From Escherichia phage SmurfNell, in the sequence record OR896824.1: a stretch of DNA of 64,000 nt, one strand, 5' to 3'. Under the pieces are notes generated by a model, which worked only from the letters and a program-made list of their open reading frames with translations, was not told where the DNA came from and made no database searches. Of this stretch, positions 55,539 to 60,422 are shown in pieces (within the stretch, counting starts at the first letter, position 1; each line of letters starts with the position of its first letter). A program made the position numbers and the translations under genes.

Positions 55539-56036
55539 ATGAAATTAACACAGAGTAGATTAAAAGAGCTAATCTCCTATGACCCTGAAACTGGCGAATT
55601 TACCTGGCTCCCAAGAAAAACTTTAGCAAAGCATTTATGGAACGCTAAAGCAGGAACCTATGATAAATTAGGGTATCTTCGTATAAAAGTTGAAGGAGTT
55701 CAATATTTAGCTCATCGCCTAGCCTTCTTGTATATGACTGGAGAAATACCAGAAGGAAAAATTGACCATAAAGATACTAATCCGTCTAATTGCGCCTGGG
55801 ATAATCTCCGTGAAGCCACGAGTTCTCAAAATTCTATGAACTCGTGTGCAAGATCGGATAACCAGCTTGGAATGAAAAATATTCGTGTAAAAGGCACTTC
55901 ATTTCAGGTTAGGATAGGCAAAGACGGCAAATCTTATACAAAAACTTTTAAAACCCTAGAAGAAGCTATAGAATGGAGAGACACCAAACTACTAGAACTT
56001 CATGGGGACTTTGCAAACAACGGAGAAGCTAAATGA
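55539..56036 (+). CDS. HNH-AP2 homing endonuclease inserted between nrdA and nrdB
   Basis: YDPETGEFTWL...GYLRIKVEGVQYLAHRLAFLYMTGEIPEGKIDHKDTNPSNCAWDNLREA plus AP2-like C-terminus. Confidence 0.75.
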   Translation: MKLTQSRLKELISYDPETGEFTWLPRKTLAKHLWNAKAGTYDKLGYLRIKVEGVQYLAHRLAFLYMTGEIPEGKIDHKDTNPSNCAWDNLREATSSQNSMNSCARSDNQLGMKNIRVKGTSFQVRIGKDGKSYTKTFKTLEEAIEWRDTKLLELHGDFANNGEAK

Positions 56037-57708: not shown

Positions 57709-58559
57709 AGCAATATATTGAAACTGGAAAACGTATTCTTGAAGAGGGTGTATGGGTAACGAATCCTAGAACAGGGGTTCGTTGCCTAACCATTATTGAT
57801 GCAGACTTTACCTTTAACGTAGGAGCAGGAGAACTGCCGCTAGTAACTACTCGTAAAGCATTTGCTAAACAAGCAATAATGGAAATGATCGGATATCTCC
57901 GTGGGTACGACTCAGCAGCACAATTCCGCGCTATTGGTGTTAATACATGGAATGCTAATGCAAATGAAAATATTGCCTGGCTAGGTAATCCATTCCGTAA
58001 AGGCGAGGATGATATGGGACGAGTCTATGGTGTTCAAGGACGTCATTGGACTAATTCTGATGGTATGGTATTTGATCAGTTAGCCAAAGTCTATCATAAT
58101 TTGAAAAGAGGGATTGACGATCGTGGAGAAATTTTAACTTTTTGGAACCCTGGGGAATTTCGTAGAGGATGCCTACGTCCGTGTATGCATACCCATCAAT
58201 TCTCTATTTTAGGTGATACACTATACCTAAACTCTTTCCAGAGGTCTAATGATTTCTTGCTGGGCCAAGTATTTAATATGGTGCAATGCTATGCACTTCT
58301 AGCTATTATGGCACAGATTACAGGTCTTAAGCCAGGTATTGCTCGTCAAAAGATTATTAATCTTCATATCTATGAAGATCAGTATAATGTTCTGATGGAG
58401 CACAAGCAATTCGATCGTGAACCTTTTGCACCTCCTACTTTAGAAATCAATCCAAATATTAGAACTTTGGATGATGTATTAACGTGGGTAAGTAAGGATG
58501 ATTTTACTGTTCGTGGCTATGAACACCATCCTGCTATTGCATACCCATTCACAGTCTAA
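57705..58559 (+). CDS. thyA: Thymidylate synthase
   Basis: 284 aa; active-site region [12 protein letters not shown] and substrate-binding motifs; follows DHFR. Confidence 0.8.
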
Positions 58560-58565
58560 TTCAAA

Positions 58566-58590
58566 TAGCCCTTCGGGGCTATTATATTTA
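58566..58590 (+). terminator. Rho-independent terminator
   Basis: TAGCCC-TTCG-GGGCTA hairpin followed by TTATATTTAAATTT. Confidence 0.6.
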
Positions 58591-58598
58591 AATTTCAT

Positions 58599-58627
58599 TT
58601 GCTTACTGAGTGAAATTCAAATATAAT
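58599..58627 (+). promoter_or_regulatory. Sigma70-type promoter
   Basis: TTGCTT, 17-nt spacer, TATAAT. Confidence 0.6.
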
Positions 58628-58657
58628 ATACTTCTAATTTGACAGAAGGATTTAATA

Positions 58658-59236
58658 ATGACAGCCATAGTAGCATTTAAATATAAAGATAAAGTATACT
58701 TAGCTGGTGATCGTATGGGTTCTAATGGCTATACGAAACTGCTGGTTAAAAATCCGAAAGTATTCAAAATCTCTGATGATTTGTACTTCGGATACACTAG
58801 TTCCTTCTACATGGGACAATTACTAGAGCATAGCTTTACTGTACCACCACGTTTAGCAGATATTTCCGATGATAAATATTTATATACGGAAATAGTACCT
58901 AAATTACGTGATATGTTTAACCAGAAAGACTTTGGCGAAAAGAAAAATGAAAAATATGCTGAACCTAATCTGGGACAATTTATTATGCTCTACAAAGGAA
59001 GAATCTTTATTTTCCAATCTAATGCTTCTATTCTAGAAGTTGAATATGCCGGTGTAGGCTGTGGAGGAGAAGATGTACTTTCCAGTATTCGTACAGGTTT
59101 AGCTATTGCGGATTGTCGAGCCACAGATTTAGATGTAGATGATATATTTGAAATCATTGATCTGGCTTTTACGCATTGTGCAGATTATATGTGTGGTGTA
59201 TCTTCCCAACATGATGTTTTAGTAATTGGAGAATAA
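58658..59236 (+). CDS. HslV/proteasome beta-like Ntn-hydrolase peptidase
   Basis: M-T-AIVAF...LAGD...K at position 33 of mature chain...GVGCGG reproduces HslV Thr1, Asp17, Lys33 and GSGG spacing; SD AGAAGGA. Confidence 0.7.
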   Translation: MTAIVAFKYKDKVYLAGDRMGSNGYTKLLVKNPKVFKISDDLYFGYTSSFYMGQLLEHSFTVPPRLADISDDKYLYTEIVPKLRDMFNQKDFGEKKNEKYAEPNLGQFIMLYKGRIFIFQSNASILEVEYAGVGCGGEDVLSSIRTGLAIADCRATDLDVDDIFEIIDLAFTHCADYMCGVSSQHDVLVIGE

Positions 59237-59238
59237 AT

Positions 59239-59508
59239 ATGTCTATTCTTTTATCTGCTTTAGAAGCAAAACAAAATACTATTGCTAGTATTAAAAAGGA
59301 AGTAATTGACTTAGAGTCACTTATTGCCGTAGAGATTGACAAAGCCATCAAAGATAAAGAATTTAATTGCCACATCCAGGGACTGACTGAATACTCAGAA
59401 AACGCTAGAAATAGCGTTATGCAAAAACTTAGCAAACTAGGTTATGTTGTGGAAGCTAAGTATGAACAGCGTGAAGGTTTTTGGCTTGAAATTGATTGGA
59501 GCAAATAA
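59239..59508 (+). CDS. Hypothetical small protein
   Basis: 89-aa ORF coupled between HslV-like gene and RNase H. Confidence 0.45.
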   Translation: MSILLSALEAKQNTIASIKKEVIDLESLIAVEIDKAIKDKEFNCHIQGLTEYSENARNSVMQKLSKLGYVVEAKYEQREGFWLEIDWSK

Positions 59509-59984
59509 TGTCGGTTTTCCACATATATACAGATGGTGCATGTAAAGGCAATCCTGGTTTAGGTGCGTGGGGATTCGTTGTCTATAATGATAATGATGAT
59601 CGTATTGGCTCTAAATCTGGCTTCAGCCCTAAAACTACTAATAACGAAATGGAACTTACTGCAATTGTAGAAGTTCTTCGTTGGTCTACTAAGAAAGATA
59701 ATCGTCCAGTAATTATCTACACTGATTCTGCTTACTGCAAAAATGGTATGGAAAGCTGGATGTGGTCTTGGCAGAAGAAAGGCTGGAAGAAGGGAGATGG
59801 TGAAACTCCTCTTAATCTAGAACTCTGGCAAGAAGCATTTAAACTAACTCAACAGTATATTAACTTCCATGATACCAATCCAACCTTTGTTAAGGTTAAA
59901 GGTCACTCAGGTATTCGTGGTAATGAAGAAGTTGATGCTCTATGCAATACTGTAATTACTGAGCAAGAACTTGCTGAGATGTAA
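59508..59984 (+). CDS. rnh: Ribonuclease H
   Basis: YTDGAC, NNEMEL, YTDSAY, GHSGIRGNEEVDAL DEDD motifs; start at ATG 59508 overlapping upstream stop. Confidence 0.85.
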   Translation: MSVFHIYTDGACKGNPGLGAWGFVVYNDNDDRIGSKSGFSPKTTNNEMELTAIVEVLRWSTKKDNRPVIIYTDSAYCKNGMESWMWSWQKKGWKKGDGETPLNLELWQEAFKLTQQYINFHDTNPTFVKVKGHSGIRGNEEVDALCNTVITEQELAEM

Positions 59985-60004
59985 TAAATAATTTAAAAAT
60001 TCAC

Positions 60005-60033
60005 TTACTTAAAGCCCTCGAATTTAGTATAAT
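60005..60033 (+). promoter_or_regulatory. Sigma70-type promoter framed by 9-bp inverted repeat
   Basis: TTACTT, 17-nt spacer, TATAAT; AAAGCCCTC (60011-60019) and GAGGGCTTT (60052-60060) flank -10 and SD. Confidence 0.5.
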
Positions 60034-60060
60034 ATTCGTATTGAAAGTGAGGAGGGCTTT

Positions 60061-60339
60061 ATGCGAATTTACAACTCAAATTCATTAGGATTTAAACCTT
60101 TGAGAAAACGCGCACAATCTCCGCGTCAGATCAGAAAGGCAAATATTGGTGAGCCAGAAACTAGGCTTCCACCACCTCCGGAGCAGCGTCTAGTTTATCT
60201 AGATGAAGAATTAGCCGAAAGGGAACGCAAAGCTCAAGAAGAAATTGAGCGTAAGAAACTGTGTACTGCTCCTGCATATAACAAGGGTGGTTATCAGTAC
60301 GTTTCCAGTGAGGAACAAGCTAAGATGATCGGCAGATAA
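60061..60339 (+). CDS. Hypothetical basic protein
   Basis: 92 aa; SD GAGGAGGG. Confidence 0.5.
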   Translation: MRIYNSNSLGFKPLRKRAQSPRQIRKANIGEPETRLPPPPEQRLVYLDEELAERERKAQEEIERKKLCTAPAYNKGGYQYVSSEEQAKMIGR

Positions 60340-60355
60340 TTTTTAAAAAATTCAT

Positions 60356-60384
60356 TTGCTAAACGCTTCAAAATTTCGTATAAT
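60356..60384 (+). promoter_or_regulatory. Sigma70-type promoter
   Basis: TTGCTA, 17-nt spacer, TATAAT, then ATATCTCATAAATTGA leader box. Confidence 0.6.
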
Positions 60385-60422
60385 ATATCTCATAAATTGA
60401 TCAACAAAAAGGAAAACAAATA

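What the first reader, a model, noticed from the sequence alone, without database searches (positions are those of the whole stretch)
58658..59236. Phage-encoded HslV/proteasome-like Ntn hydrolase with no HslU partner in the window
After Met removal the chain starts with Thr and keeps Asp17, Lys33 and a GxGG loop at HslV-like positions (TAIVAF...LAGD...K33...GVGCGG), so it is probably a catalytically competent threonine peptidase. It is the first gene after a strong early promoter and is co-transcribed with an 89-aa protein and RNase H. No AAA+ unfoldase gene is visible, so it may act alone, use a host unfoldase, or target specific host or defence proteins.
Basis: partly seen in the sequence, partly recalled or inferred. 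Interest (0 to 1): 0.7.

Follow-up and report, generated by a model that had tools for sequence, protein, structure and literature searches.

The report
Orphan proteasome-like peptidase of T5-like phage
This is a real early gene of a T5-like (Epseptimavirus) phage that encodes a small proteasome-family threonine peptidase with no unfoldase partner; it is already in the databases under that label and belongs to a large phage family described in 2021, but nobody knows what it cuts.

Summary

It is not an HslV orthologue. No NCBIfam HslV model matches, there is no hslU gene, most mapped HslU-pocket residues are replaced across the family, and the pore loop differs.

It belongs to a very large phage and prophage clade (6,680 clusters at 50% identity) with invariant catalytic residues and a GYTSSF[RY]MGQLL signature.

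No HslU/ClpX-like gene lies in the window, in the whole EPS7 genome, or within 6 kb of 80 viral homologues.

The gene is an optional cassette placed directly after a conserved early promoter. T5 lacks it, and phage 1-29 carries an unrelated 84-aa gene there. The 89-aa neighbour is not a partner.

The identical protein is deposited for over 100 phages as 'peptidase HslV family'. Orphan phage proteasome homologues were catalogued by Fuchs, Alva and Lupas (2021). The most likely function is an ATPase-independent Thr1 peptidase with an unknown target.

Verdict: already known, modest interest.

The parts
58564..58589 (+). Rho-independent terminator-like hairpin after thymidylate synthase (AATAGCCC-TTCG-GGGCTATT, then ATATTT)
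   Evidence: Read from the sequence. Conserved in phage 1-29 and T5. Missed by the simple scan.
58599..58627 (+). Early promoter: -35 TTGCTT (58599-58604), 17-nt spacer, -10 TATAAT (58622-58627)
   Evidence: Conserved base for base in phage 1-29 and T5. T5's record annotates a promoter at the homologous place upstream of rnh. Sequence similarity between the phages ends just downstream of the -10 element.
58645..58650 (+). Ribosome-binding site GAAGGA, 7 nt before the ATG
   Evidence: Read from the sequence. An RBS is annotated at the same place in phage Seafire.
58658..59236 (+). Proteasome-like (MEROPS T1-type) N-terminal-threonine hydrolase, 192 aa. Identical to EPS7 AGC_0103 / ACB97546.1.
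59239..59508 (+). 89-aa protein of unknown function (phrog_13270). Same transcription unit, but an independent cassette rather than a partner.
   Evidence: Found in 223 phage records against about 125 with a close copy (at least 90% identical) of the peptidase. Absent next to the peptidase in the S124-like phage. Present without the peptidase in phage 1-29.
59508..59984 (+). RNase H (T5.091 homologue). Its start overlaps the stop of the 89-aa ORF by 1 nt.
   Evidence: Pfam PF00075 E=1e-30. phrog_531. Annotations.

Best explanation
The gene encodes a stand-alone proteasome-superfamily threonine peptidase. It belongs to a large clade carried by phages and prophages. That clade is related to HslV and BPH ('group I' proteasome homologues of Fuchs et al. 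2021) but is not orthologous to HslV.

Shown here:
- The gene is intact.
- It sits directly behind a conserved T5-type early promoter.
- It folds with high confidence as a proteasome beta-type alpha-beta-beta-alpha sandwich.
- It has no propeptide.
- It keeps every residue of the T1 catalytic set.

Inferred:
- Host methionine aminopeptidase removes Met1, since Thr is a permitted second residue. This happens for E. coli HslV (established knowledge).
- The free amino group and hydroxyl of Thr1, with Lys33 and Asp17 and the backbone NH of the conserved Gly, hydrolyse peptide bonds.
- The protein probably assembles into rings like its relatives. It probably works without a dedicated AAA+ unfoldase, as proposed for BPH, acting on unfolded polypeptides, peptides or one specific target.
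- It is an optional accessory function made early in infection, because sister phages lack it. A role against a host or defence protein is therefore possible, but nothing here supports it directly.
- The rigidly conserved motif next to the active site suggests a defined, shared substrate rather than bulk proteolysis.

The substrate is unknown.
For: - Catalytic set: T2, D18, K34, G45, G134 and G136 are invariant. Position 135 is Cys in 64, Ser in 12 and Gly in 1 of 77. The motif G-Y-T-S-S-F-[RY]-M-G-Q-L-L is nearly invariant.
- No propeptide: nearly all of the 150 best representatives align from residue 1. 75 of 77 aligned homologues start MTC, MTA or MTV.
- No partner: there is no AAA+ unfoldase in the window or in all of EPS7. 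None lies within 6 kb in 80 IMG/VR loci or in three prophage contexts. Fuchs et al. found the same for their phage-borne families (PMC8665760).
- Not built for HslU: HslV K28 aligns with a hydrophobic residue, R35 with an invariant Phe, and F57 with an invariant Gly. Only F54 is kept (pocket residues F54/F57 from PMC6429459; K28 and R35 from my own knowledge).
- Accessory early gene: divergence between phages begins right after the shared promoter. T5 has nothing there, phage 1-29 has an unrelated 84-aa ORF, and S124 has the peptidase alone.
Against: - No activity has been measured for this protein or, to my knowledge, for any member of this clade. BPH itself showed no activity on standard substrates although it bound epoxomicin (PMC5777263).
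- The oligomeric state could not be predicted here.
- Cys replaces the Ser129-equivalent, with unknown consequence.
- In about 20 of 80 viral loci the homologue sits in the head-morphogenesis module between terminase and portal. That placement argues against a single universal 'early' role.
- Use of a host unfoldase through a non-canonical interface is not excluded.
Confidence: 0.55

Rival explanations
1. The phage subunit hijacks a host unfoldase. It assembles into a ring that docks onto host HslU (or ClpX, ClpA or another AAA+ ring). The host motor then feeds it chosen host or phage proteins.
For: - The fold is close to HslV, and no phage ATPase is available.
- Enterobacteria, the hosts of the T5-like phages, have HslUV (established knowledge).
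- T5-like phages also carry an orphan ClpP-like gene (EPS7 AGC_0045, PF00574 E=3.4e-7). Jumbo phage 121Q has a ClpP-like and a proteasome-like gene two genes apart. This fits a theme of borrowed motors.
Against: - HslU-pocket residues are not kept: K28 becomes hydrophobic, F57 becomes an invariant Gly, R35 becomes an invariant Phe.
- The HslV basic pore cluster R86/R89/K90 is absent, and the loop is 9-16 residues long instead of a short linker (PMC5777263).
- The family is as close to BPH and 20S beta as to HslV.
- ClpP-like genes do not generally accompany the family.
Confidence: 0.13
2. It is not a degradative protease. Instead it is a sequence-specific processing enzyme, transpeptidase or ligase, or an amidase acting on a small molecule. 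The proteasome homologue connectase is a precedent.
For: - Connectase shows that the T1 fold can become a specific ligase (PMC7980362, listed; PMC8665760).
- The motif GYTSSF[RY]MGQLL directly after the oxyanion Gly is nearly invariant across very different phages. This suggests one defined substrate.
- There is no unfoldase partner.
Against: - The protein keeps helices H1-H4 and lacks the S3/S4 lid insertion that defines connectase (PMC8665760).
- There is no candidate substrate gene in a conserved neighbourhood.
Confidence: 0.12
3. It serves virion morphogenesis, for example by processing a head or packaging protein, rather than acting on the host.
For: In about 20 of 80 IMG/VR loci and in a Devosia prophage, the homologue lies beside or inside the head-morphogenesis genes (terminase large subunit, portal, prohead protease, capsid). 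In six loci the terminase large subunit is the adjacent upstream gene.
Against: - In this phage the gene is in the early nucleotide-metabolism and replication region behind an early promoter.
- The phage has its own head maturation protease.
- T5 and phage 1-29 build similar virions without it.
- The 20 loci may represent one related lineage.
Confidence: 0.05
4. It is a catalytically irrelevant decoy or binder that titrates a host factor, or a decaying passenger gene.
For: The gene is dispensable within the genus. No activity is known.
Against: Thr1, Asp17, Lys33 and the glycines are invariant over 77 sequences at 35% mean column identity. The protein is 100% identical in more than 100 phage records. 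This pattern indicates selection on catalysis.
Confidence: 0.04

Closest known systems
BPH (Betaproteobacteria proteasome homologue; PDB 5OVS, 5OVU)
   Different: Only 13-19% identity, and the profile E-value is only 4e-5. The BPH loop is strongly acidic, whereas here the net charge is about -1. BPH is a chromosomal bacterial gene, whereas this one is carried by phages. The family-specific GYTSSF[RY]MGQLL motif and the Cys at the Ser129 position were not compared with BPH.
HslV (ClpQ), the peptidase of the HslUV protease
   Different: No hslU gene. No match to NCBIfam HslV models. Most mapped HslU-docking residues and the basic pore cluster are replaced. About 16 residues longer. 15-19% identity.
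Phage-associated proteasome homologues PPH and AAH of Fuchs, Alva and Lupas 2021 (PMC8665760)
   Same: Group I proteasome-like proteins radiating from BPH and HslV. They are carried by tailed phages and prophages, keep the catalytic residues, and have no AAA+ partner and no informative gene context. This is exactly the picture found here.
   Different: PPH is described as about 140 residues and lacking helix H2. This protein has 192 residues and a predicted H2 at 71-89. The second proteasome-like gene of Aeromonas phage 4L372XY (gp206) looks more like the PPH or RPC type. Whether this clade is AAH could not be tested because the reference sequence was not retrievable. The clade seen here (6,680 clusters at 50% identity) is far larger than the counts given in 2021.
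20S proteasome beta subunits
   Different: No propeptide, no alpha-subunit partner, no C-terminal helix H5. Cys replaces Ser129.

Membership tests
Proteasome / MEROPS T1 superfamily (Pfam PF00227) | Profile match above the curated threshold | tested here: met
   38.5 bits against a gathering score of 22.4, E=1.2e-9, covering residues 2-189.
Proteasome / MEROPS T1 superfamily (Pfam PF00227) | Proteasome-type alpha-beta-beta-alpha Ntn sandwich with helices H1-H4 | tested here: met
Proteasome / MEROPS T1 superfamily (Pfam PF00227) | N-terminal Thr nucleophile with Asp17, Lys33 and the oxyanion Gly | tested here: met
   Present in the window protein and invariant in 77 homologues. Exposure of Thr1 by Met removal is inferred.
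Proteasome / MEROPS T1 superfamily (Pfam PF00227) | Ser129 in the G-S-G-G loop | tested here: inconclusive
   The loop is kept, but the residue is Cys here and in 64 of 77 homologues, Ser in 12 and Gly in 1. The effect is unknown.
Proteasome / MEROPS T1 superfamily (Pfam PF00227) | Peptidase activity | not testable with these tools
   Needs biochemistry.
HslV (ClpQ) orthologues | Match to the curated HslV family model | tested here: not met
   The NCBIfam scan at E up to 1 lists only 20S_bact_beta (14.7 bits against a cut-off of 191.9) and arc_protsome_B. No HslV model appears.
HslV (ClpQ) orthologues | Partner hslU gene in the same operon or genome | tested here: not met
   None in the window, in the whole EPS7 genome, or beside 80 viral homologues.
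HslV (ClpQ) orthologues | Residues forming the pocket for the HslU C-terminus (F54 and F57 from PMC6429459; K28 and R35 from my own knowledge) | tested here: not met
   F54 is kept. F57 aligns with an invariant Gly, K28 with V/I/T/L, and R35 with an invariant Phe. This is alignment-based, and Q114 and K80 were not mapped.
HslV (ClpQ) orthologues | Short pore linker with the basic cluster R86/R89/K90 (PMC5777263) | tested here: not met
   The loop is 16 residues here (9-16 in the family) with net charge about -1.
HslV (ClpQ) orthologues | Dodecamer of two hexameric rings | not testable with these tools
   Only monomer prediction was available.
BPH | Elongated, highly acidic pore loop; tetradecamer | tested here: inconclusive
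   The loop is elongated but not highly acidic. Ring symmetry is not testable. Sequence similarity is only at profile level (E=4e-5).
PPH (Fuchs et al. 2021) | About 140 residues, lacking helix H2 | tested here: not met
   192 residues with H2 predicted at 71-89. Family median length is 185.
AAH (Fuchs et al. 2021) | Clusters with the AAH reference WP_035979212 | not testable with these tools
   The reference sequence and cluster map could not be fetched. The distribution (alphaproteobacterial prophages, many phages) is compatible.
Connectase | Lacks H1/H2 and has a two-helix lid inserted between S3 and S4; monomeric ligase | tested here: not met

The most novel reading that the evidence does not exclude
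This widespread, rigidly conserved phage clade may be a dedicated weapon. It could be a self-sufficient mini-proteasome, or a subunit that captures a host AAA+ motor through a new interface. In either case it would destroy one specific, conserved host or anti-phage defence protein early in infection. Its presence or absence in the cassette slot behind the early promoter would then help set the host range of T5-like phages.
Probability: 0.15. Interest if true: 0.75.

Novelty: already known. Interest (0 to 1): 0.33.

Why it matters
The family is very large. The searches here found thousands of sequence clusters and at least 476 IMG/VR loci from a single motif scan. It occurs in T5-like, jumbo and temperate phages, and its active site is strictly conserved. 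Yet I found no report of an activity, a structure or a target for any member. If the substrate were found, it would show what a virus does with its own proteasome-like enzyme. It would also give the first function for the 'orphan' group I proteasome homologues. Natural sister phages with and without the gene offer a ready-made test system. As a database finding it adds nothing new, because the gene is already annotated this way.

Tried and rejected
- **The 89-aa downstream protein as a partner.** Rejected. It occurs in 223 phage records against about 125 with a close copy (at least 90% identical) of the peptidase. All four combinations exist: both (window), peptidase only (S124-like, L015), 89-aa only (phage 1-29), neither (T5).
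- **Linkage to the ClpP-like orphan protease.** It holds in 121Q and is genome-wide in EPS7. No ClpP-like gene lay next to the homologue in the 80 viral loci, apart from the 121Q contig itself and one weak partial match at a locus edge.
- **Conserved-neighbour clustering of 80 IMG/VR loci.** The only recurrent neighbours are terminase, portal, prohead protease and capsid, in about 20 loci. No AAA+ appears.
- This found only a P-loop match to a NadR-like gene.
- **PADLOC defence models.** No hit.
- **Deciding between the PPH, AAH and CPH families of Fuchs et al.** PPH was excluded by length and by the presence of H2. AAH is untestable because the reference sequences were not retrievable.
- **AFDB50 fold search.** The library was unavailable.
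- **Literature on the HslV K28 / HslU contacts.** The searches found no paper naming K28, and the PNAS 2002 paper is not held. F54 and F57 were taken from PMC6429459 instead.
- **phiR2-01 proteomics for expression of its g082 homologue.** The supplementary tables are not held.

Full report
**What is there.** The window comes from a T5-like phage of the genus Epseptimavirus (Demerecviridae).
- The stretch 58000-60400 is 99.2% identical to Salmonella phages SE3, Seafire and OSY-STA and to Escherichia phage SuperGirl.
- The ORF at 58658-59236 (+) is real, 192 aa, and begins MTAIVAF.
- Gene order is nrdB, dihydrofolate reductase, thymidylate synthase, this gene, an 89-aa ORF, RNase H.
- The exact protein is already deposited (ACB97546.1 of phage EPS7; UniRef 'ATP-dependent protease', n=31). 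More than 100 phage records carry a 99-100% identical copy.
- It is variously annotated 'peptidase HslV family', 'protease', 'proteasome subunit-like protein' or 'hypothetical'.

**Is the similarity real?** Yes.
- Pfam Proteasome (PF00227) matches end to end with 38.5 bits against a cut-off of 22.4.
- PHROG 1040, 'peptidase HslV family', gives E=1.9e-21.
- An AlphaFold2 model built on 77 homologues has mean pLDDT 95.3 and the expected strand and helix order with four helices.
- Foldseek against the PDB returns HslV and BPH first (E about 1e-10).

**Catalytic residues.** The alignment has 77 family members with 35% mean column identity. All numbering in this paragraph counts Met1 as residue 1.
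- T2, D18, K34, G45, G134 and G136 are invariant.
- Residue 135, the equivalent of proteasome Ser129, is Cys in 64, Ser in 12 and Gly in 1.
- A family signature G45-Y-T-S-S-F-[RY]-M-G-Q-L-L directly follows the oxyanion glycine and is almost invariant.
- 75 of the 77 aligned homologues begin MTC, MTA or MTV. Nearly all of the 150 best library representatives align from residue 1. There is therefore no propeptide.
- Removal of Met1 by methionine aminopeptidase is inferred from the small second residue and from the precedent of E. coli HslV (established knowledge).

**It is not HslV proper.**
- A profile of the family hits HslV (1e-7), 20S beta (4e-6) and BPH (4e-5) with similar, weak scores.
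- No NCBIfam HslV model matches.
- In the hhalign alignment with E. coli HslV (94% probability), HslV K28 aligns with a hydrophobic position. K28 is known to me as the salt-bridge partner of the HslU C-terminus. R35 aligns with an invariant Phe and F57 with an invariant Gly. Only F54 is kept. F54 and F57 are given as pocket residues in PMC6429459.
- The linker after helix H2 is short and carries R86/R89/K90 in HslV (PMC5777263). Here it is 16 residues (9-16 in the family) with net charge about -1.
- The family thus resembles BPH in lacking a propeptide, lacking the HslU interface and having a longer loop. It lacks BPH's strongly acidic loop.

**How big is the family and who has it?**
- A profile search found 5,014 clusters at 90% identity. 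A full HMMER scan found 6,680 representatives at 50% identity with E up to 1e-3, of which 816 are below 1e-30.
- In GenBank phages it occurs in Epseptimavirus and other Demerecviridae (Erwinia phage KEY), in Aeromonas and Vibrio phages, in the jumbo phages 121Q and PBECO4, and in XacN1, Geobacillus virus E3 and others.
- One motif scan of IMG/VR gave at least 476 confirmed loci, on contigs from 30 kb to 360 kb.
- BFVD holds 27 viral cluster representatives with this fold.
- The bacterial copies I looked at lie in a prophage or among mobile elements: Spongiibacter next to an integrase, Devosia just before the terminase, and a Rhizobium plasmid among transposases.
- Some marine members carry an acidic linker and a small Rho_N/HeH-like C-terminal tail.

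**Partners and context.**
- No AAA+ unfoldase is annotated anywhere in EPS7, which carries the identical protein.
- I clustered all ORFs within 6 kb of 80 viral homologues. The only recurrent neighbours are head-morphogenesis genes (terminase large subunit, portal, S78-type prohead protease, capsid), in about 20 loci. In those loci the gene lies beside or within this module.
- The 89-aa downstream protein is not a partner. It is found in 223 records, many without the peptidase. The S124-like phage has the peptidase followed directly by RNase H.

**A cassette slot.**
- Aligning the window with phage 1-29 (same genus) and T5 shows that the terminator hairpin and the promoter TTGCTT-17-TATAAT are conserved base for base. 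Similarity stops a few bases after the -10 element.
- T5 goes straight into rnh and annotates a promoter there.
- Phage 1-29 has an unrelated 84-aa ORF in the slot, followed by the 89-aa ORF.
- The window has the peptidase plus the 89-aa ORF.
- The gene is therefore an optional cargo expressed from an early promoter. This proves it is dispensable for the basic T5-type life cycle and fits an accessory, host-directed role. That last step is inference.

**What is already published.**
- Fuchs, Alva and Lupas (Bioinformatics 2021, PMC8665760) catalogued 22 new proteasome homologues. Several are associated with phages: PPH, 'the first true viral member', about 140 residues and lacking H2; AAH; and CPH.
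- These lie in a group around BPH and HslV. The authors stated that they found no informative gene context and no co-occurring AAA+ partner.
- The present protein has H2 and 192 residues, so it is not of the PPH type. The second proteasome-like gene of Aeromonas phage 4L372XY (gp206) fits that type better.
- Whether this clade equals AAH could not be tested.
- A jumbo-phage paper had also remarked on HslV genes without HslU (PMC7823757).
- I found no experimental study of any member.

**Mechanism and verdict.**
- Most likely (about 0.55) this is an active Thr1 peptidase that works without a dedicated unfoldase, as proposed for BPH. It is made early, and its substrate is unknown but probably defined.
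- Rivals: capture of a host AAA+ motor (0.13); a specific processing, ligase or amidase activity like connectase (0.12); a morphogenetic role (0.05); a non-catalytic decoy or decaying gene (0.04).
The feature is already known as an annotation and as a class, so it rates modest interest. Its function remains a real open question.

Noticed in passing
window 58628-58660 (junction after the promoter); compare L009 1747-2001 and L008 2880-3040: The site directly after a conserved terminator and early promoter is a hot spot for gene-cassette exchange in T5-like phages. Four arrangements exist: peptidase plus 89-aa ORF (window), peptidase only (S124-like, L015), an unrelated 84-aa ORF plus the 89-aa ORF (phage 1-29), or nothing (T5). 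The 84-aa ORF, which has a Pro-rich tail, is distantly similar to Erwinia phage KEY key_058 (E=8e-5).
   Followed up: partly
window 58560-58657, versus L001 3564-3917: The window lacks a 117-aa 'membrane protein' (DUF3307 in one record). In Seafire, EPS7 and most close relatives this gene sits between thymidylate synthase and the peptidase gene. The 357-bp difference shows as a two-piece match.
   Followed up: partly
L010 22918-23517 (EPS7 AGC_0045; outside the window) and L014 2065-2673 (121Q gp473): T5-like phages also carry a divergent orphan ClpP-like gene (PF00574 E=3.4e-7) with no Clp ATPase. In jumbo phage 121Q a gene annotated as ClpP-like lies two genes upstream of its proteasome-like gene, near Sir2-like and PhoH-like genes that T5-like phages also have. 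No general linkage was found in the 80 viral loci.
   Followed up: partly
L003 4001-4552 and 4570-5397 (Aeromonas phage 4L372XY gp205, gp206): Two different proteasome-like genes lie side by side. gp205 belongs to the clade studied here. gp206 (275 aa) has a shorter core (PF00227 E=1.7e-5) plus an acidic linker and a Rho_N/HeH-like tail. A hetero-oligomer is conceivable. Metagenomic members of the main clade (P0084, P0096, P0109, P0133 and others) have similar tails.
   Followed up: partly
L037, L068, L083, L094 and about 16 other IMG/VR loci; L005/L006 (Devosia prophage): In about a quarter of the sampled viral loci, the proteasome-like gene lies beside or inside the head-morphogenesis module, often with the terminase large subunit just upstream and the portal just downstream. 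This is a very different setting from the early region of T5-like phages.
   Followed up: partly
window 55539-56036: A 165-aa HNH homing-endonuclease-like ORF sits just upstream of the ribonucleotide reductase small-subunit (nrdB) gene. T5 (hegH) and Seafire have the same arrangement, with the endonuclease between nrdA and nrdB.
   Followed up: no
GenBank MG065642.1 (hit H17/H31): A record named 'Campylobacter phage A148' (host given as C. jejuni) is 99.1% identical to this Salmonella/E. coli Epseptimavirus region and encodes the identical peptidase. The host label looks doubtful.
   Followed up: no
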